31,188 bases of DNA from a virus (Duplodnaviria; Heunggongvirae; Uroviricota; Caudoviricetes). Made by a program: the position numbers and the translations under genes. Below, in pieces: positions 16,399 through 23,499 of the stretch. The notes under the pieces were generated by a model. That model worked only from the letters and a program-made list of their open reading frames with translations. It made no database searches and was not told the origin of the DNA. Position 1 is the stretch's first letter, and every line of letters begins with the position of its first letter. Where the stretch lies: positions 1-31,188 of IMG/VR virus record IMGVR_UViG_2690316121_000008; one strand, 5' to 3'.

Positions 16399-17026
16399 TA
16401 GCGATAATTTTACTCATCATCCTTCACATTTGGCTCTGTAGACAGGGTGGTGATCACTTCTGGAGTGAATCCAGATTAAACATCTCATTGCTGATGCTTG
16501 AAGTTGAGCATCTGGCGCGCGGTAAGGGGCTGCGTTGAAATAAGAGCCAGTCATTACAAATACCAGGATTTAGCCTCGTATTCGCGGGGCTTTTTATTGC
16601 CATTACAAAAGCCACTCCCTACAGAGTGGCTTTGATAATGGCTTATAGCCTACACGGGATAACTTAACTGATATCCCTTTTAACGGATAAAGGTATTCAA
16701 GCCTGACACATCATGCGCTGTATCGTCGCCGTATTCCCGTATTAACAGAGACCGTAGCCCGACGGGGAACTCCTTCTGCGAGAGTGTGCGGGAATAATCA
16801 AAAACGATGCACACCGGGTTTTTACCGCGTTTATGGTTCGCGGGTTTGTCCCTCATGCTCGCCAGTCCTGTGCGGGGGGGGAAGAAACAGGATACTCACA
16901 CAGATTCTTGTGCGAACGATGCTATTCCTTTCTGGATTATCCCGATGCCATTCATGCAAGGCGCTGTATCAGACGTTCGTCATGGCTGTCAGGCTGACGG
17001 GTCCTCCCGGTGGGGTGGGCTGCCAC

Positions 17027-17090
17027 GGGGCGGGAGCAGCGCGGAAAAAGGCTAGTTTTTGAAATTTTATTCGTCATCACCACTGCTGTA
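17027..17090. other. Putative cos site (cosN-like core GGGGCGG-GAGCAG-CGCGG plus downstream cosB-like elements)
   Basis: By eye this aligns with the lambda cos region as I recall it (GGGGCGG CGACCT CGCGG ... CTATTTATGAAAATTTT ... TTCGTCAT): here GGGGCGGGAGCAGCGCGG ... CTAGTTTTTGAAATTTTATTCGTCAT, ~190 bp upstream of the Nu1-like start. Confidence 0.45.
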
Positions 17091-17213
17091 ATTGATTGAT
17101 ATTACAGCGGTTTTATTTTTGCAGTGTCGATTTTGATTGTTTTTTGTTCATCACTAACACCGTTTGCCTAAAGTTGTTCGCAAGATGCATGTTTAAAACA
17201 TTCTGGAGCGGGT

Positions 17214-17708
17214 ATGGATCGAGAGTTAAAAAATCTGACGCTGAATATCAGTCAACTGGCGGCACTGTCAGGTGTACATCGCCAGACTGCTGCGGCAAGG
17301 CTGCAAAATCTACCCGTTGCAGGGGGGCATGAAAGCAACCTCAAGCTTTATCGGGTGGTTGATATTGTGTCGGCATTTCTGGCATTGCCACCGCCGGTTG
17401 CAGAAGGCGAAATGGACGCGCATGAGCGCAAAGCCTGGTATCAGTCTGAACGTGAGCGTCTTAAGTTCGAACAGGAAACGGCACAACTCATTCCGGCCAG
17501 TGATGTCAGACGGGAGTTTGCCATCTGGGCAAAAGCGGTCGTGCAGGTGCTGGAGACATTACCGGATATTCTGGAACGTGACTGCGGTCTGCAGCCTGCC
17601 GCTGTGAGCCGTGTTCAGTCCATTATTGATGATCTGCGCGATCAGATAGCCCTGCGGGTGACTGAAGCAGGTGCGGATGATGAGGAGGAATTACAGCAGG
17701 AGGAGTAA
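17214..17708 (+). CDS. Terminase small subunit (lambda Nu1-like)
   Basis: 164 aa; N-terminal winged-HTH (LTLNISQLAALSGVHRQTAA) and position immediately upstream of the large terminase; Shine-Dalgarno GGAGCGGG. Confidence 0.8.
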   Translation: MDRELKNLTLNISQLAALSGVHRQTAAARLQNLPVAGGHESNLKLYRVVDIVSAFLALPPPVAEGEMDAHERKAWYQSERERLKFEQETAQLIPASDVRREFAIWAKAVVQVLETLPDILERDCGLQPAAVSRVQSIIDDLRDQIALRVTEAGADDEEELQQEE

Positions 17709-19810
17709 TGCTGAATCAGGAAACCGCAAAGGCAGCACGAACCGATTCAGGTTATATCCTTCGCGCACCGAGACGAATGCGGGTTGCTGATGCCGTTGCT
17801 CAGTATATGCGGGTGCCCATGGGGGCAGGGAACTCAGTCCCGTGGGATCCGCTGGTGGCACCGTATGTTATTGAGCCGATGAACTGCCTGGCCTCGCGTG
17901 AATACGACGCAGTGATATTTGTTGGCCCGGCACGAACCGGCAAGACTATCGGCCTGATTGACGGCTGGGTGATTTACAACGTGATTTGCGATCCTGCTGA
18001 TATGCTGATCATTCAGATGACGGAGGAAAAAGCCCGCGAACACTCCAAAAAACGACTCGCCAGAACGTTTCGCGTCAGCCCGGAAGTGGTCAGTCGCCTG
18101 AGTCCGAACAAAAATGACAACAACGTTTATGACAGAACATTCCTTGCTGGTAACTACCTGAAAATCGGCTGGCCGTCAGTCAATATCATGTCCTCATCAG
18201 ATTATAAATGCGTCGCGCTGACGGATTATGACCGTTTTCCGGAAGATATTGATGGCGAGGGGGATGCTTTCTCTCTTGCCTCAAAACGTACCACCACATT
18301 TATGTCCAGCGGTATGACGTTGGTGGAGAGTTCCCCCGGCAGGGATGTGAAGGATGTGAAATGGCGACGGACTTCACCGCATGAGGCTCCACCAACCACG
18401 GGGATCCTGTCGCTCTATAACCGTGGTGATCGCCGTCGCTGGTACTGGCCCTGTCCACACTGTGGTGAGTATTTTCAGCCCTGCGGCGATGTGGTTGCTG
18501 GTTTCCGTGATATTGCCGATCCCGTGCTGGCAAGTGAGGCGGCTTATATTCAGTGTCCTTCCTGTTCAGGACGGATTATGCCTGAACAAAAACGCGAGCT
18601 GAACGGACGTGGGGTCTGGTTACGGGATGGTGAATCCATCAATGCAGATGGCAGTCGTTATGGTGATCCCCGGCGTTCACGTATTGCGTCATTCTGGATG
18701 GAGGGTCCGGCAGCTGCTTATCAGACACTCTCGCAACTCGTTTACAAACTGCTTACTGCAGAACAGGAATACGAGACAACCGGAAGTGAAGAGACACTCA
18801 AGACGGTTATCAATACCGACTGGGGATTACCTTATCTTCCCCGCGCCAGCATGGAGCAACGAAAAAGTGAATTGCTTGAGCAGCGGGCAGAGCCAGTTCC
18901 TTCCCGCAGTGTGCCGGATGGCGTTAATTTCCTTGTGGCGACAGTGGATGTGCAGGCGGGACGTCATCGCCGTTTTGTGGTTCAGGTAACGGGCTATGGC
19001 AGCCGTGGCGAACGCTGGATTATTGATCGTTACAACATCACGCAGTCATTGCGCGGTGACAGCGACGGGGAGAGCCAGCGAATTGATCCGGCCAGCTATC
19101 CGGAAGACTGGGATGTCCTGCTGACGGATGTTTTTCATAAAAGCTGGCCGCTGGCCTCCGACCCTTCTCAACAAATGCGACTGATGGCAATGGCGGTGGA
19201 CTCCGGCGGTGAAGACGGGGTCACTGATAATGCCTATAAATTCTGGCGTCGTTGCCGTCGTGATGGCCTTGGCAAACGTATTTACCTGTTTAAGGGCGAC
19301 AGCATCCGGCGCGCAAAACTGATCACCCGTACATTCCCTGATAACACCGGACGAACGGGCCGACGGGCGCAGGCCGCAGGTGATGTGCCGCTCTGGCTTC
19401 TTCAGACGGATGCCCTGAAAGACCGGGTGAATAACGCGTTATGGCGTGACTCGCCAGGTCCCGGCTATGTGCATTTCCCTGACTGGCTGGGGAGCTGGTT
19501 TTACGACGAACTGACGTATGAAGAGCGGAGCAGTGACGGGAAATGGAGTAAGCCGGGTCGCGGTGCCAACGAAGCTTTTGACCTGATGGTGTATGCCGAG
19601 GCTCTGGTCATTCTGCATGGATACGAAAAGATCCGCTGGCCGGATGCACCGGAGTGGGCGAGCCGGGAAACCTGGCTGGAGTGTGTCCCGGACAGTACCG
19701 AACCGTCACCCTCACCGGAACCGGTATCCACGCCTGTTAAAAAACAAAAACGGAAGAAAACAGTAACTGACGATGTTAACCCCTGGCTGACTTCCGGAGG
19801 ATGGTTATGA
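17708..19810 (+). CDS. Terminase large subunit (lambda gpA-like)
   Basis: 700 aa; Walker A-like VGPARTGKT; CPHCGEYFQ zinc-ribbon-like motif analogous to lambda gpA CPHCGEEQY; ATG overlaps upstream stop. Confidence 0.9.
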   Translation: MLNQETAKAARTDSGYILRAPRRMRVADAVAQYMRVPMGAGNSVPWDPLVAPYVIEPMNCLASREYDAVIFVGPARTGKTIGLIDGWVIYNVICDPADMLIIQMTEEKAREHSKKRLARTFRVSPEVVSRLSPNKNDNNVYDRTFLAGNYLKIGWPSVNIMSSSDYKCVALTDYDRFPEDIDGEGDAFSLASKRTTTFMSSGMTLVESSPGRDVKDVKWRRTSPHEAPPTTGILSLYNRGDRRRWYWPCPHCGEYFQPCGDVVAGFRDIADPVLASEAAYIQCPSCSGRIMPEQKRELNGRGVWLRDGESINADGSRYGDPRRSRIASFWMEGPAAAYQTLSQLVYKLLTAEQEYETTGSEETLKTVINTDWGLPYLPRASMEQRKSELLEQRAEPVPSRSVPDGVNFLVATVDVQAGRHRRFVVQVTGYGSRGERWIIDRYNITQSLRGDSDGESQRIDPASYPEDWDVLLTDVFHKSWPLASDPSQQMRLMAMAVDSGGEDGVTDNAYKFWRRCRRDGLGKRIYLFKGDSIRRAKLITRTFPDNTGRTGRRAQAAGDVPLWLLQTDALKDRVNNALWRDSPGPGYVHFPDWLGSWFYDELTYEERSSDGKWSKPGRGANEAFDLMVYAEALVILHGYEKIRWPDAPEWASRETWLECVPDSTEPSPSPEPVSTPVKKQKRKKTVTDDVNPWLTSGGWL

Positions 19811-20019: not shown

Positions 20020-21527
20020 TGGCAATTCTTGATGATGTGATTGGCGTTTTTTCACCAGGATGGAAAGCGGCAAGGCTGCGTTCCCGTGCGGTGATCCAGG
20101 CTTATGAGGCCGTAAAAACGACGCGGACACACAAAGCCCGACGGGAGAACCGAACTGCCGACCAGTTAAGCCAGTACGGGGCCGTGTCGTTACGTGAGCA
20201 GGCCCGTTACCTTGATAACAACCACGATCTGGTCATTGGTGTATTTGACAAGCTGGAAGAACGGGTGGTGGGGAAAAACGGGATTATTGTCGAGCCACAT
20301 CCGGTATTACGCAATGGGGCCATTGCCCGTGATCTGGCAGCGGAGATACGTACCCGATGGAGTGAATGGTCTGTCAGTCCGGAGGTCACCGGGCAGTTTA
20401 CCCGTCCGATGCTGGAACGTCTGATGCTGCGTACCTGGCTGCGCGATGGTGAGGTGTTTGCCCAGATGGTTTCCGGGCGCATAAACAGCCTGACGCCTTC
20501 TGCCGGTGTTCATTTCTGGCTGGAGGCGCTTGAGCCGGACTTTATTCCCATGACCAGTGATGAGAGCAACAGGCTGAATCAGGGCGTGTTTGTTGATGAC
20601 TGGGGGCGTCCCGAAAAATATCTGGTGTATAAAAGTCGTCCTGTATCCGGACGGCAGATGGAAACCAAAGAAGTGGATGCAGAGCGAATGCTGCATCTTA
20701 AATTTGTTCGCCGTCTGCACCAGATGCGCGGGACGTCTTTATTGTCCGGTGTGCTGATCCGCCTCAGCGCCCTGAAAGAGTATGAAGATTCTGAGCTGAC
20801 TGCAGCAAGGATCGCCGCTGCTCTGGGGATGTACATCCGCAAAGGCGACGGACAGAGCTATGAAACGGATGGTAATGACAGCAAGGAGAATGAACGCGAG
20901 CTTACCATTCAGCCAGGCATTATTTACGACGATCTGAAACCCGGCGAAGAAATCGGAATGGTGAAGTCGGATCGCCCAAATCCTAACCTTGAAACTTTTC
21001 GTAATGGTCAGTTGCGTGCCGTGGCGGCGGGCAGTCGTCTGAGTTTTTCCAGTACAGCGCGCAACTATAACGGCACTTACAGCGCCCAGCGTCAGGAGCT
21101 GGTTGAATCTACTGATGGCTACCTGATCCTGCAGGACTGGTTTATTGGTGCCGTCACCCGCCCGATGTATCGTGCATGGCTGAAACAGGCTGTGGCATCC
21201 GGTGTTATCAGGCTACCCCGCGATCTTGATCGTTCTTCACTGTATACCGCGGTGTATTCCGGACCGGTGATGCCGTGGATTGACCCTGTTAAGGAGGCTG
21301 AGGCCTGGAAAATCCAGATTCGTGGTGGAGCGGCGACAGAATCAGACTGGGTACGTGCAGGTGGTCGTAATCCGGATGATGTCAAACGTCGGCGCAAGGC
21401 CGAAATTGATGAAAACCGCAAGCTGGACCTGGTATTTGATACCGATCCGGCCAGTGATAAAGGAGGCAGCAGTGCCGCAACGAAACGACAGGAGCCGCAG
21501 TACACCGACGACCAGTCCGAAGAATAA
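20019..21527 (+). CDS. Portal protein
   Basis: 502 aa, ATG overlapping the W-like stop; size and position (after terminase/W, before protease-capsid) typical of portal; not lambda B-like by eye. Confidence 0.8.
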   Translation: MAILDDVIGVFSPGWKAARLRSRAVIQAYEAVKTTRTHKARRENRTADQLSQYGAVSLREQARYLDNNHDLVIGVFDKLEERVVGKNGIIVEPHPVLRNGAIARDLAAEIRTRWSEWSVSPEVTGQFTRPMLERLMLRTWLRDGEVFAQMVSGRINSLTPSAGVHFWLEALEPDFIPMTSDESNRLNQGVFVDDWGRPEKYLVYKSRPVSGRQMETKEVDAERMLHLKFVRRLHQMRGTSLLSGVLIRLSALKEYEDSELTAARIAAALGMYIRKGDGQSYETDGNDSKENERELTIQPGIIYDDLKPGEEIGMVKSDRPNPNLETFRNGQLRAVAAGSRLSFSSTARNYNGTYSAQRQELVESTDGYLILQDWFIGAVTRPMYRAWLKQAVASGVIRLPRDLDRSSLYTAVYSGPVMPWIDPVKEAEAWKIQIRGGAATESDWVRAGGRNPDDVKRRRKAEIDENRKLDLVFDTDPASDKGGSSAATKRQEPQYTDDQSEE

Positions 21528-21540
21528 TTCCTGGTTCAGG

Positions 21541-23499
21541 ATGCAGGCTGGTCACCAGAGTGACGCGGATATTTATATTTATGACGAGATTGGTTTCTGG
21601 GGTGTTACAGCGAAGCAGTTTATCAGTGATCTGAATGCACTGGGCGATATCACCCACATTAATCTCCATATCAATTCACCGGGTGGCGATGTCTTTGAAG
21701 GCATCGCCATTTTTAATGCGCTGAAAACACATGGTGCGTCCATTACCGTTTATGTCGACGGTGTGGCGGCATCAATGGCGTCGGTCATTGCGATGGTGGG
21801 AAACCCGGTCATTATGCCGGAAAACACCTTCATGATGATTCATAAACCATTTGGCTTTACGGGCGGTGATGCGGAGGACATGCGCACCTATGCCGACCTG
21901 CTCGATAAAGTTGAGGCGGTTCTGTTACCCGCTTATGCACAGAAAACCGGGAAAACCACCGATGAAATTGCTGCCATGCTGGCGGATGAGACCTGGATGT
22001 CCGGTGCCGAATGTCTGGCACATGGATTTGCTGATCAGGTGACGCCAGCCGTTAAGGCAATGGCATGTATTCAGTCAAAACGTACAGAGGAATTTAAAAA
22101 GATGCCGGAATCCATTCGAAACATGATTACTCCGCCACGCAACAGTGCTCCACGCGTACAGGATAATGAACCTGCAGCTTCCCGGACGCCAGTGCAGGCA
22201 GCAGCACCCGTGGTGGATGAAAACAGTATCCGTGCGCAGGTACTGGCAGAGCAAAAAGCGCGTGTAAATGGTATTAATGATCTGTTTGCCATGTTTGGCG
22301 GGCGTTATCAGATGCTGCAGGCTCAGTGTCTTGCCGATCCTGAATGTTCGCTGGAGCAGGCCCGCGAAAAGCTGTTGAACGAGATGGGGCGCGAGTCCAC
22401 GCCATCCAATAAAAATACCCCGGCTCATATTTATGCCGGTAACGGTAATTTTGTGGGGGACGGGATCCGCCAGGCGCTGATGGCGCGTGCCGGATTTGAA
22501 AAAACCGAACGTGATAATGTCTACAACGGGATGACCCTGCGTGAATATGCCCGTATGTCACTGACTGAACGGGGTATTGGGGTTTCCGGTTATAACCCGA
22601 TGCAGATGGTCGGTGCGGCGTTCACACACAGTACGTCTGACTTCGGTAATATTCTGCTGGATGTTGCGAACAAAGCCATTCTGCAGGGCTGGGAAGATGC
22701 CCCTGAAACCTATGAACAGTGGACGCGGAAAGGTCAGTTGTCTGATTTTAAAATTGCCCATCGTGTGGGTATGGGGGGCTTCAGTGCTCTGCGTCAGGTG
22801 CGTGAAGGGGCGGAATATAAATACGTCACCACCGGAGATAAACAGGCCACTATTGCACTGGCGACCTATGGCGAGCTGTTCAGTATCACCCGTCAGGCCA
22901 TTATCAATGATGATCTGAATATGCTGACCGATGTCCCGATGAAACTGGGCCGTGCGGCGAAATCCACTATTGCCGATCTGGTTTATGCCATTCTGACGTC
23001 TAACCCGAAAATCTCCACAGATAATGTAAGTCTGTTCGATAAAGCGAAACATGCAAACGTACTGGAGAGCGCTGCAATGGACGTGGCATCGCTGGATAAA
23101 GCCCGCCAGTTGATGCGCGTTCAGAAAGAGGGGGAGCGTCATCTGAATATTCGTCCTGCGTTCGTACTGGTACCGACGGCGATGGAGTCTGTTGCTAACC
23201 AGGTCATTCGCTCCTCAAGTGTCAAGGGGGCTGACATTAACGCCGGTATTATTAACCCGGTGAAAGATTTTGCGACCGTTATTGCAGAGCCTCGTCTTGA
23301 TGATAACAGCCAGACCACCTTCTACCTGGCTGCGTCAAAAGGCTCCGATACGATTGAAGTGGCTTATCTCAACGGTGTGGATACGCCATATATTGATCAG
23401 ATGGAGGGCTTCAGTGTGGATGGCGTGACAACGAAAGTGCGTATTGACGCCGGTGTCGCGCCAGTTGATCACCGCGGTCTGGTGAAATGTACGGCGTAA
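21541..23499 (+). CDS. Fused prohead protease (ClpP/S49-like) - scaffold - major capsid protein
   Basis: 652 aa from ATG 21541; N-terminal ClpP-like segment (INSPGGDVFEGIAIFNAL...VDGVAASMASVIAMVG); long C-terminal capsid-like domain; the ORF track's upstream extension (from 21280) overlaps the portal and is rejected. Confidence 0.8.
   Translation: MQAGHQSDADIYIYDEIGFWGVTAKQFISDLNALGDITHINLHINSPGGDVFEGIAIFNALKTHGASITVYVDGVAASMASVIAMVGNPVIMPENTFMMIHKPFGFTGGDAEDMRTYADLLDKVEAVLLPAYAQKTGKTTDEIAAMLADETWMSGAECLAHGFADQVTPAVKAMACIQSKRTEEFKKMPESIRNMITPPRNSAPRVQDNEPAASRTPVQAAAPVVDENSIRAQVLAEQKARVNGINDLFAMFGGRYQMLQAQCLADPECSLEQAREKLLNEMGRESTPSNKNTPAHIYAGNGNFVGDGIRQALMARAGFEKTERDNVYNGMTLREYARMSLTERGIGVSGYNPMQMVGAAFTHSTSDFGNILLDVANKAILQGWEDAPETYEQWTRKGQLSDFKIAHRVGMGGFSALRQVREGAEYKYVTTGDKQATIALATYGELFSITRQAIINDDLNMLTDVPMKLGRAAKSTIADLVYAILTSNPKISTDNVSLFDKAKHANVLESAAMDVASLDKARQLMRVQKEGERHLNIRPAFVLVPTAMESVANQVIRSSSVKGADINAGIINPVKDFATVIAEPRLDDNSQTTFYLAASKGSDTIEVAYLNGVDTPYIDQMEGFSVDGVTTKVRIDAGVAPVDHRGLVKCTA

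What the first reader, a model, noticed from the sequence alone, without database searches (positions are those of the whole stretch)
17027..17106. Lambda-like cos region with a divergent predicted 12-nt cohesive end
The segment aligns by eye with the lambda cos region but the central hexamer differs (GAGCAG here versus CGACCT in lambda as I recall), predicting a distinct cohesive-end sequence and hence packaging incompatibility with lambda despite Nu1/A-like terminase. An 8-bp-stem palindrome (GCTGTAAT ... ATTACAGC, 17084-17107) downstream may be an accessory binding site.
Basis: partly seen in the sequence, partly recalled or inferred. Interest (0 to 1): 0.35.

Follow-up and report, generated by a model that had tools for sequence, protein, structure and literature searches.

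The report
Prophage cos site, rare end allele
This is the ordinary DNA-packaging (cos) site of a lambda-type E. coli prophage; its 12-base sticky end is a rare spelling of a common, already described type, and the nearby palindrome surrounds the likely binding site for the host DNA-bending protein IHF.

Summary
Window 16999-17158 is a complete lambda-type cos site: cosQ (GGGTCCT), cosN (CCACG|GGGCGGGAGCAG|CGCGG), an A/T-tract spacer, and a cosB made of R3, an IHF site, inverted R2 and R1. It lies just upstream of a small terminase (DUF1441/phrog_141) and a gpA-family large terminase.

The predicted 12-nt 5' end is 17028-17039. Its position matches the mapped Fels-1 end (GGGCGGCAGCGG, same terminase families). 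It also matches the first base of the phage Tritos and cdtI records.

This cos family occurs in about 28% of complete E. coli genomes. The usual end is GGGCGGGAGCGT. The window's ...AG spelling is rare: 2 of 5426 genomes, plus one metagenome contig. Variation at bp 7-12 of lambda-like ends is already documented by the Feiss laboratory.

Packaging specificity lies in TerS-cosB, not in the end sequence. TerS here is not a Pfam Nu1 member.

The palindrome is real, one base off (17085-17092/17101-17108). It encloses a perfect IHF consensus that is positionally conserved across relatives. The hairpin itself is confined to one cosB subtype, so a terminator or TerS-site role remains possible.

Verdict: a new member of a known kind, of low interest.

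The parts
16999..17005 (+). cosQ (GGGTCCT), packaging-termination element; it ends 22 nt before the top-strand nick, against 23 nt in lambda
   Evidence: Identical to lambda's 7-bp cosQ. Invariant in 55 unique related cos sequences, and it lay outside the pattern used to fetch them. It forms part of the unique composite motif.
17026..17041 (.). cosN, 16 bp: CG|GGGCGGGAGCAG|CG. Predicted nicks lie between 17027/17028 on the top strand and 17039/17040 on the bottom strand.
   Evidence: Aligns with lambda, with Fels-1 (end mapped in PMC8008629) and with Gifsy-1. The nick-flanking ACG and CGCGG are conserved.
17028..17039 (+). Predicted 12-nt 5' cohesive end GGGCGGGAGCAG, the rare 'AG' allele of the common GGGCGGGAGCGT
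   Evidence: The Tritos and cdtI records begin at the equivalent base.
17040..17070 (+). cosN-cosB spacer with phased A and T tracts (CGCGGAAAAAGGCTAGTTTTTGAAATTTTAT), positionally equivalent to lambda I2
   Evidence: Read from the sequence. Shared almost unchanged by all cosB subtypes up to about bp 36, although part of this stretch was fixed by the search pattern. The I2 concept comes from PMC4856287.
17071..17086 (+). R3-like TerS recognition repeat (TCGTCATCACCACTGC), bp 44-59 from the left end
   Evidence: Direct repeat with R1 (family D1) and inverted repeat with R2 (pair I3). Positions 17069-17079 are invariant and 17080-17083 at least 90% conserved in subtype A; the 3' end 17084-17085 is variable. 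Its type-specific sequence co-varies with the TerS helix-turn-helix.
17082..17111 (.).
   Evidence: pair I2, 91% complementary. As RNA it folds at -14.3 kcal/mol, z -3.75. It is picked up by the terminator-like scan. The hairpin occurs only in cosB subtype A.
17089..17101 (-). IHF core consensus TATCAATCAATTA (WATCAANNNNTTR), the I1 equivalent between R3 and R2
   Evidence: A perfect match; only 4 occur in the window on both strands, against 1.4 expected. The same strand and the same position (bp 61-77) carry a match with at most 1 mismatch in 30 of 58 loci encoding TerS relatives, against 3 of 58 on the other strand.
17111..17120 (-). A-tract on the minus strand (AAAAATAAAA), 9 nt 5' of the IHF core as in strong IHF sites. 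On the plus strand it is the T-run that follows the hairpin.
   Evidence: Read from the sequence. Conserved in subtype A and present in Fels-1. The comparison with lambda's H' site is from my memory, not a tool result.
17121..17133 (-). R2-like repeat, inverted (GCAGTGTCGATTT; reverse complement AAATCGACACTGC)
   Evidence: Inverted repeat with R3 (pair I3, 82% complementary). R2 and R1 change together between cosB subtypes: C TTCGACAT, D AACATAC, E TTCGAC.
17146..17158 (+). R1-like repeat (GTTCATCACTAAC)
   Evidence: Direct repeat of the R3 region (family D1, 17131-17154 versus 17057-17080). Distant relatives carry the equivalent TTCAYCATCATG at this place.
17214..17708 (+). Small terminase subunit, 164 aa (DUF1441 / phrog_141), with an N-terminal helix-turn-helix at about residues 10-32
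   Evidence: Pfam DUF1441, E 2.7e-41. PHROG 'terminase small subunit', E 7e-74. 40% identical to Fels-1 TerS. The start codon is at bp 187 from the left end, against 191 in lambda.
17708..19810 (+). Large terminase subunit, 700 aa, gpA family (ATPase plus endonuclease); the enzyme that nicks cosN
   Evidence: Pfam GpA_ATPase E 8.5e-72 and GpA_nuclease E 1.1e-85. 25% identical to lambda gpA over 623 aa, E 4e-19.

Best explanation
Window 16999-17158 is the cos site of an apparently complete lambdoid E. coli prophage.

Proposed mechanism:
- During late growth the small terminase (17214-17708) binds the repeats R3, R2 (inverted) and R1 of cosB.
- IHF bends the DNA at the site between R3 and R2 (core 17089-17101).
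- This anchors the gpA-type large terminase on cosN. It nicks the top strand between 17027/17028 and the bottom strand between 17039/17040.
- The result is 12-nt 5' cohesive ends reading GGGCGGGAGCAG. cosQ (16999-17005) serves the terminal cut.

The end sequence is a rare allele, differing at bp 11-12 from the common E. coli form GGGCGGGAGCGT. It differs from lambda at bp 7, 8, 9, 11 and 12.

Shown: the sequence architecture, its conservation, the protein families, and the positional match to an experimentally mapped relative. Inferred: the actual nick positions in this phage, TerS and IHF binding, and functionality of the rare allele.
For: Motif and neighbouring genes:
- The composite cosQ-cosN motif is unique in the window and absent from all shuffles.
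- TerS, gpA-type TerL, a head-tail adaptor and a lambda-family portal follow immediately.

Position of the ends:
- The Fels-1 cos was mapped by read-start analysis and PhageTerm as 12 nt, GGGCGGCAGCGG.
- Fels-1 aligns as CCACG|12-mer|CGCGG with the window and has TerS and TerL of the same families.
- The Tritos and cdtI records start at the equivalent first base, and Tritos ends at ...CCACG.

Occurrence of the family:
- It is present in 1498 of 5426 complete E. coli genomes.

cosB architecture:
- Unbiased repeat finding gives R3~R1 as a direct repeat and R3~R2 as an inverted repeat.
- R2 and R1 change together between cosB subtypes, and the subtypes co-vary with the TerS helix-turn-helix.
- The IHF consensus is perfect in the window. 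In relatives it is held at bp 61-77 on the same strand in 30 of 58 loci, against 3 of 58 on the other strand.

Prophage state:
- The prophage looks complete: integrase, CI-like repressor, O-like replication protein, Q-like antiterminator, lysis genes and head genes.

Literature:
- Variation at bp 7-12 is common among lambda-like phages, and R3-I1-R2-R1 is the usual cosB plan.
Against: - No virion-end data exist for this phage or for any phage with the AG allele.
- The allele is rare (2 of 5426 genomes), so it could be a mildly defective variant.
- Record starts (Tritos, cdtI) may have been set by homology rather than by end mapping.
- TerS is not a Pfam Nu1 member, and its homology to Nu1 is only borderline. 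The R-site and IHF model is therefore by analogy.
- IHF binding rests on a consensus match only.
- The outer half of the palindrome's right arm is among the less conserved positions, and most changes there are uncompensated. The symmetry itself may carry no function.
- The single-sequence structure model of TerS was too poor to use.
Confidence: 0.85

Rival explanations
1. The palindrome plus the following T-run (17082-17120) acts in the late mRNA as an intrinsic terminator or attenuator upstream of terS. It would stop unmodified RNA polymerase in the lysogen, while Q-modified polymerase reads through. Its overlap with the IHF site would then be secondary, or the element would have two functions.
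For: - The terminator-like scan reports 17082-17111 with 11 pairs, 4 of them G-C, an 8-nt loop and the tail TTTATTTTTG on the sense strand.
- The RNA fold is -14.3 kcal/mol, z -3.75, with 0 of 200 shuffles as stable.
- The hairpin is kept in most subtype-A cos sites, median -13.1 kcal/mol.
- A G.T intermediate and a fully compensated G-C form (the window itself) exist at the outermost core pair.
- A Q-like antiterminator gene lies upstream at 12500-12883.
Against: - cosB subtypes B to E and Fels-1 have no hairpin at this place (-1.5 to -2.5 kcal/mol), yet they keep the TTGAT core and the T-tract. Those shared features fit an IHF site better.
- Most substitutions in the arms are uncompensated, and the outer right arm is poorly conserved.
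- The stem is A/U-rich with a large loop.
- A stronger terminator-like hairpin already lies upstream at 16572-16591.
Confidence: 0.15
2. The two palindrome arms are half-sites for a dimer of the subtype-A small terminase: a subtype-specific accessory or primary TerS site, rather than IHF-related sequence.
For: - The palindrome is confined to the cosB subtype that goes with one TerS helix-turn-helix variant.
- The left arm occupies bp 58-65, inside the interval where lambda R3 lies (bp 50-65, PMC9026076), and it overlaps the R3-like repeat.
- The left arm is well conserved.
Against: - The arm sequence (CTGTAAT) is not repeated at R2 or R1, whereas the TCATCAC / GTGTCGA motif is.
- The half-site centres are 16 bp apart, which places them on opposite faces of straight DNA.
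- The arms lie inside the expected IHF footprint.
- The outer right arm is variable.
Confidence: 0.15
3. The site is an inactive relic. The AG allele, or the prophage as a whole, is defective, and the sequence is no longer cut and packaged.
For: - The AG allele is very rare: 2 of 5426 E. coli genomes, 0 in IMG/VR and 1 relevant metagenome contig.
- Many E. coli prophages are cryptic.
- Degraded copies of this cos family exist, with a truncated TerL next to a second cos in L012.
Against: - All positions that are conserved in the family outside bp 11-12 are intact.
- Positions 11 and 12 are naturally polymorphic (GT, GG, AT), and the mapped Fels-1 end has G at position 12.
- The TerS, TerL and portal ORFs are full length, and the prophage carries a complete gene set.
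Confidence: 0.1
4. The phage packages by a headful (pac) mechanism, and the lambda-like motif is coincidental.
For: None found.
Against: - TerL is gpA family.
- The composite motif never arises in shuffles.
- The motif is conserved at a fixed distance upstream of TerS across Enterobacterales and Pasteurellaceae.
- Fels-1 was mapped as a cos phage.
Confidence: 0.02

Closest known systems
Salmonella phage Fels-1 cos (end mapped as 5'-GGGCGGCAGCGG-3'; PMC8008629 Suppl. Table 4)
   Same: - The CCACG|12-mer|CGCGG frame is the same.
- TerS is DUF1441 (40% identical) and TerL is gpA type.
- An IHF-like core lies at bp 61-73, flanked by CATCA-type repeats and a T-tract.
   Different: - The 12-mer differs at bp 7 (C versus G) and bp 11 (G versus A).
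- cosQ is the AAGGTACTCC variant.
- There is no palindrome around the IHF core.
- The TerS start is at bp 177 rather than 187.
E. coli phages mEp460, Tritos and cdtI, and the prophage cos family CGCGGAAAAAGGCTAG
   Same: - cosQ, cosN and the spacer are near-identical.
- mEp460 and vB_EcoS-569R4 share the same cosB subtype A and the same TerS (94-96% DNA identity).
- The Tritos and cdtI records start at the equivalent first base.
   Different: - Their 12-mers end in GT (Tritos, cdtI) or GG (mEp460) instead of AG.
- Tritos and cdtI have cosB subtype B, a divergent DUF1441 TerS and no palindrome.
Bacteriophage lambda cos (cosQ-cosN-I2-R3-I1-R2-R1)
   Same: - The 7-bp cosQ is the same.
- The left half of the end (GGGCGG) and the nick flanks (ACG / CGCGG) are the same.
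- The overhang geometry is 12 nt.
- The order and orientation of cosB elements match, with R3 and R2 about 50 bp apart.
- The TerS start is about 190 bp from the end.
- TerL is gpA family.
   Different: - Five of six positions at bp 7-12 differ.
- The R sequences are unrelated.
- TerS is DUF1441, not Phage_Nu1.
- The cosQ-to-nick spacing is 22 nt rather than 23.
- Only 8 of the 16 cosN bp are rotationally symmetric, against 10 in lambda (counted directly from the sequence).
Gifsy-1 and N15 cohesive ends (Feiss laboratory, PMC4669245)
   Same: - They are documented natural variants in the right half of a lambda-like 12-nt end.
- Gifsy-1 reads GGGCGGCAGCGT, sharing the xAGCxx core with the window.
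   Different: - Gifsy-1 uses a Nu1-family TerS and a lambda/21-like cosB.
- The window differs from Gifsy-1 at bp 7, 11 and 12.

Membership tests
[quoted passage not shown] | cosN with the conserved left half GGGCGG and conserved bases flanking both nick sites | tested here: met
   ACG|GGGCGG......|CGCGG is identical to lambda at bp 1-6 and in both flanks. The motif is unique in the window and absent from shuffles.
[quoted passage not shown] | 7-bp cosQ about 20-25 bp upstream of the top-strand nick | tested here: met
   GGGTCCT lies at 16999-17005, 22 nt before the nick (lambda: 23 nt).
[quoted passage not shown] | Adjacent gpA-family large terminase | tested here: met
   Pfam GpA_ATPase and GpA_nuclease. 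BLASTP against lambda gpA gives E 4e-19.
[quoted passage not shown] | cosB with TerS-site repeats in the order R3 - IHF site - R2 (inverted) - R1 | tested here: met
   This is a sequence-level test only. Repeats and their orientation come, co-variation of the repeats between subtypes, and the IHF consensus and its positional conservation. Protein binding was not tested.
[quoted passage not shown] | Virion DNA actually carries 12-nt 5' protruding complementary ends at this site | not testable with these tools
   Support is indirect only: the mapped Fels-1 end and the record starts of Tritos and cdtI.
Phage_Nu1 small terminase family (PF07471) | Significant match to the Phage_Nu1 profile or to lambda gpNu1 | tested here: not met
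   Pfam gives DUF1441 only. BLASTP against Nu1 gives E 20. Lambda and Gifsy-1 TerS do match Phage_Nu1.
Phage_Nu1 small terminase family (PF07471) | Remote homology: the same domain order with an N-terminal (winged) helix-turn-helix | tested here: inconclusive
   hhalign of 27 DUF1441 sequences against 2 Nu1 sequences gives probability 50%, E 1.6e-4, collinear over 138 columns with the helix-turn-helix aligned. The single-sequence AlphaFold model was unusable (pLDDT 64). No PDB sequence hit was found.
DUF1441-TerS cos subfamily (Fels-1, mEp460, cdtI, Tritos) | DUF1441/phrog_141 TerS directly downstream of a CCACG|12-mer|CGCGG cosN with an A/T-tract spacer | tested here: met
IHF binding site | Core consensus WATCAANNNNTTR with an upstream A-tract | tested here: met
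   TATCAATCAATTA lies on the minus strand at 17089-17101, with AAAAATAAAA 9 nt 5' of it. The position is conserved in relatives. This is a consensus match only.
IHF binding site | IHF binds and bends this DNA | not testable with these tools
   This needs EMSA or footprinting.
Intrinsic (Rho-independent) terminator | Stable G+C-rich hairpin immediately followed by a U-run on the transcribed strand | tested here: inconclusive
   The hairpin (-14.3 kcal/mol) and the T-run are present. However, the stem is A/U-rich, the loop is 8 nt, and the hairpin is absent from sister cosB subtypes. No transcript data are available.

The most novel reading that the evidence does not exclude
The polymorphism at bp 11-12 of the cohesive end (GT, GG, AT, AG) is found on several cosB/TerS backgrounds. 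[quoted passage not shown] It might be maintained by selection as a compatibility barcode that lowers productive end-joining between chromosomes of the several related prophages that co-reside in one E. coli. Separately, the subtype-A hairpin might be a dual IHF site and Q-sensitive terminator that insulates the head operon in lysogens.
Probability: 0.08. Interest if true: 0.4.

Novelty: new member of a known kind. Interest (0 to 1): 0.15.

Why it matters
The practical value is in annotation.
- The site fixes the physical genome ends of a very common class of E. coli prophages, those with a DUF1441 small terminase. About 28% of complete E. coli genomes carry this cos family.
- The 'hypothetical protein' often called across cos is probably not a gene.
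- The work gives an explicit cosQ-cosN-R3-I1-R2-R1 map for terminases whose small subunit Pfam still labels as of unknown function.

Biologically it adds one rare natural allele to the known variability of bp 7-12 of lambda-like cohesive ends. It also shows that sister cos sites share cosQ, cosN and the spacer but swap cosB together with the TerS recognition helix, the pattern already known from lambda versus phage 21. None of this would surprise a specialist.

Tried and rejected
- Literature search for the exact 12-mers returned only unrelated eukaryotic or plasmid hits.
- Vahanian et al. 2017 (Virology 509:140) and the cdtI phage paper are not held, so I could not check whether this allele or the cdtI ends were reported there.
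- The exact AG 20-mer has no hit in IMG/VR. In the metagenome scan, 15 of 16 hits were unrelated high-GC DNA and only L213 was a true cos.
- BLASTP of TerS against Nu1, and PDB sequence searches with the single sequence and with the profile, gave nothing usable.
- The single-sequence AlphaFold model of TerS was too poor for a fold search.
- The covariation test on the palindrome gave one compensated change, which is the window itself. A second apparent double change comes from divergent, doubtfully aligned sequences, and there are many uncompensated changes. This is no statistical support for selected base pairing.
- The idea that Gifsy-1 belongs to the same TerS family was rejected: Gifsy-1 TerS is Phage_Nu1.
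- The idea that IMG/VR contigs with two cos sites are PICI-like satellites was rejected for the one I looked at. L012 shows a truncated TerL and looks like adjacent prophage remnants.
- The minus-strand promoter-like match at 17092-17064 is at chance level.

Full report
**What is at the coordinates**

The plus strand around the finding reads GACGGGTCCTCCCGGTGGGGTGGGCTGCCACG GGGCGGGAGCAG CGCGGAAAAAGGCTAGTTTTTG.... I joined the two ends of lambda (NC_001416). They align as TTACGGGTCCTTTCCGGTGATCCGACAGGTTACG GGGCGGCGACCT CGCGGG.

- The 7-bp cosQ (GGGTCCT, 16999-17005), the three bases before the top-strand nick (ACG), bp 1-6 of the cohesive end (GGGCGG) and the five bases after it (CGCGG) are identical to lambda.
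Five of six positions differ.
- The composite motif GGGTCCT-N18-28-ACGGGGCGG-N6-CGCGG occurs once in the window and in none of 100 dinucleotide shuffles.
- The predicted 12-mer is 17028-17039. The hexamer is the right half of the end, not its centre.

**Gene context**

- Downstream lie a 164-aa ORF (17214-17708; Pfam DUF1441, E 2.7e-41; PHROG 'terminase small subunit', E 7e-74) and a 700-aa gpA-family large terminase (17708-19810; GpA_ATPase plus GpA_nuclease).
- The large terminase is 25% identical to lambda gpA, E 4e-19.
- A head-tail adaptor and a lambda-family portal follow.
- Upstream are a lysozyme and an Rz-type lysis gene.
- Further upstream are a Q-like antiterminator, an O-like replication protein, a CI-like repressor and an integrase. 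Downstream of the portal is a fused protease-capsid gene.
- This is therefore a complete-looking lambdoid prophage with cos in the canonical place, between the lysis and terminase genes.

**Evidence that the ends are really there**

- In the phage collection, the records of phage Tritos (OV696610) and phage cdtI (AB285204) begin exactly at the base equivalent to 17028, with GGGCGGGAGCGT. Tritos ends with ...CCACG.
- Stronger evidence comes from Salmonella prophage Fels-1. Its cos was mapped from sequencing-read start sites and PhageTerm as the 12-mer 5'-GGGCGGCAGCGG-3' (PMC8008629, Supplementary Table 4).
- The Fels-1 locus aligns CCACG|GGGCGGCAGCGG|CGCGG with the window. It is followed at a similar distance by a DUF1441 TerS (40% identical, E 1e-41) and a large terminase annotated as similar to that of phage cdtI.
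- The nick positions are thus supported by a mapped homologous system. They have not been measured for this phage.

**How common the site is, and how unusual the 12-mer is**

- The 321-bp cos region has megablast matches in 1498 of 5426 complete E. coli genomes. It is 100% identical in two of them, JNE23-011 and JNE112863.
One singleton, AG, was the window itself.
- The exact AG version is absent from IMG/VR and present in only 2 of 5426 E. coli genomes.
- It also occurs in one metagenome contig (L213), and there on a different cosB subtype.
- bp 11-12 are therefore polymorphic across cosB backgrounds, and AG is a rare allele.
- Across 66 loci encoding TerS relatives from other genera, the same frame is kept while the 12-mer varies widely: GGGCGGCGGACT, GGGCGGCGCGCT, AGGCGGCGGGCA, and GGGTTTCGGGCG in Pasteurellaceae.
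- Gifsy-1 reads GGGCGGCAGCGT. This matches the published statement that it differs from lambda at bp 8, 9 and 11 (PMC4669245).

The Feiss laboratory reports the following (PMC4669245 and PMC9026076):

- Among lambda-like phages, differences at bp 7-12 are common while cosQ is highly conserved.
- Lambda TerL efficiently nicks cosN variants changed in the right half.
- Chromosomes with mismatched lambda/N15 ends are viable, with about a 4-fold lower yield.
- Packaging specificity lies in the TerS-cosB interaction.

A dedicated survey (Vahanian et al. 2017) exists but is not held. A divergent end sequence therefore does not by itself predict packaging incompatibility.

A different specificity is nevertheless likely here, because cosB and TerS differ from lambda's:

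- TerS is DUF1441, not Phage_Nu1. Lambda and Gifsy-1 TerS are Phage_Nu1.
- BLASTP finds nothing against Nu1.
- A profile-profile comparison gives a borderline but collinear, full-length match with the N-terminal helix-turn-helix aligned (probability 50%, E 1.6e-4).
- TerS probably works like Nu1. It fails the Pfam and BLASTP membership tests for the Nu1 family, and the profile-profile comparison is only borderline.

**Anatomy of cosB**

Unbiased repeat finding in 16990-17220 gave three relevant results:

- a direct repeat, 17057-17080 with 17131-17154 (TTTTGAAATTTTATTCGTCATCAC / TTTTGATTGTTTTTTGTTCATCAC);
- an inverted repeat, 17076-17086 with 17121-17131 (ATCACCACTGC / GCAGTGTCGAT);

The order is R3 forward, R2 inverted, R1 forward, with R3 and R2 about 50 bp apart. 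This is the lambda plan.

The E. coli family splits into at least five cosB subtypes. They share cosQ, cosN and the spacer up to about bp 36 and then diverge. R2 and R1 change together between subtypes:

| Subtype | Shared R2/R1 core |
|---|---|
| A | TC[GA][AT]CAC |
| C | TTCGACAT |
| D | AACATAC |
| E | TTCGAC |

Each subtype goes with its own TerS helix-turn-helix:

| Subtype | TerS helix-turn-helix |
|---|---|
| A | ...GVHRQTAAARLQNL |
| C | ...GLHRQTVVARLKNI |
| B | ...GLHRDTVKKRLLAA |

This co-variation is the best available in-silico evidence that the repeats are TerS recognition sites.

**The palindrome**

- On its own it is not beyond chance. About 4 such 8/8 palindromes are expected per shuffled window.
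- Its 8-nt spacer and inner arm bases form a perfect IHF core consensus on the minus strand: TATCAATCAATTA at 17089-17101. Only four perfect matches occur in the whole window.
- The T-run that follows (17111-17120) is an A-tract 9 nt 5' of that core on the minus strand. This is the layout of strong IHF sites; the comparison with lambda's H' site is from my own knowledge.
- In loci encoding TerS relatives, a match with at most 1 mismatch lies on the same strand at the same place (bp 61-77) in 30 of 58 loci, 13 of them perfect. The other strand has 3 of 58 and none perfect.
- The expected bend centre, near bp 74-75, falls midway between R3 and R2.
- I therefore read the palindrome as the I1-equivalent IHF region of cosB.

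**What remains open about the palindrome**

- The hairpin-forming symmetry is confined to subtype A. The median RNA folding energy of bp 50-100 is -13.1 kcal/mol there, against -1.5 to -2.5 in subtypes B to E. Fels-1 also lacks the hairpin.
- In the window it folds at -14.3 kcal/mol (z -3.75). It is followed by TTTATTTTT on the sense strand, so a terminator-like scan picks it up.
- Within subtype A the arms are mostly conserved, but the outer right arm is among the more variable positions and most changes are uncompensated.
- The only clean compensated change (A-T to G-C at 17085/17108, with G.T intermediates in five sequences) is the window itself.
- An attenuator role, or a subtype-specific TerS half-site role, therefore cannot be excluded. 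I give each about 0.15.

**Verdict**

The end is a rare allele of a very common and already recognised type. The incompatibility argument rests on the wrong determinant. The palindrome is best explained as the IHF-site region of cosB. This is a new member of a known kind and is of low interest beyond annotation.

Noticed in passing
window 16807-17055 (+), also 16784-17062: An 82-aa ORF (phrog_17397, unknown function) runs across cosQ and cosN and is annotated as 'hypothetical protein' in several phage records (for example mEp460_059). NCBI's PGAP annotates no CDS there in the identical E. coli genome. The ORF would be cut in two in linear virion DNA, so it is probably an artefact of calling genes on conserved non-coding cos DNA.
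   Followed up: partly
L001 1-30 and L005 end (LR595868.1, phage mEp460_4F5): This deposited genome starts 5 nt upstream of the nick and reads CCACG GGGCGGGAG CGCGG. That is 3 nt shorter inside the cohesive-end sequence than every other family member. It is either an assembly artefact at the physical ends or a real 9-nt variant. It remains unexplained.
   Followed up: partly
IMG/VR loci L008-L127 against window 17028-17213: At least five cosB subtypes (A to E) share near-identical cosQ, cosN and spacer up to about bp 36 and then diverge, together with the TerS N-terminal helix-turn-helix. This is a sharp mosaic boundary that looks like exchange of a specificity cassette, as between lambda and phage 21.
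   Followed up: partly
L012 (cos at 93 and 10764), L018 (661 and 8659), L082 (7636 and 10172), L106: Some IMG/VR contigs carry two cos sites of this family in the same orientation, 2.5-10.7 kb apart, and often of different cosB subtypes. In L012 the first cos is followed by TerS and a truncated TerL, which suggests adjacent prophage remnants rather than a satellite element.
   Followed up: partly
L213 977-996 (metagenome contig OKTH01000125.1): The rare AG cohesive-end allele also occurs on a subtype-B (Tritos/cdtI-like) cosB. The allele is therefore not tied to one cosB or TerS background.
   Followed up: partly
L206-L210 (metagenome contigs, about 63-65% G+C): Five related high-GC contigs carry GGGTCCATGGTGACG|GGGCGGGAGCAG|CGCGG, the same 12-mer with a GGGTCC motif only about 8 nt upstream. 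This could be the cos of an unrelated high-GC phage or a coincidence.
   Followed up: no
window 16572-16591 (+): A G+C-rich terminator-like hairpin (AGCCTCGTATTCGCGGGGCT followed by TTTTATTGCC) lies just after the small conserved ORF 16386-16538 (phrog_11822), between the lysis genes and cos. This resembles a moron-type gene-plus-terminator unit.
   Followed up: no
window 21280-23499 (+): A 739-aa ORF matches both head-maturation protease and major head protein families (phrog_133, phrog_4523). It is a fused protease-capsid gene of the Gifsy-2/mEp213 type, so the head module is not lambda-like although the terminase, portal and cos are (PMC12315714).
   Followed up: no
window 11502-12497 (+): A 331-aa protein matches PHROG 'HNH endonuclease' (phrog_96, E 1.6e-175) just upstream of the Q-like antiterminator gene. 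Its role is unknown, and it is not adjacent to the terminase genes.
   Followed up: no
window 17076-17086 / 17121-17131 and subtype-A relatives: In subtype-A cos sites, the R2 variant GCAGTG occurs only with the R3 variant CACTGC (5 of 5 unique sequences), and GTAGTG only with CACTAC (3 of 3). This keeps the two repeats complementary. It may reflect selection for matched TerS sites or simply linked haplotypes.
   Followed up: partly
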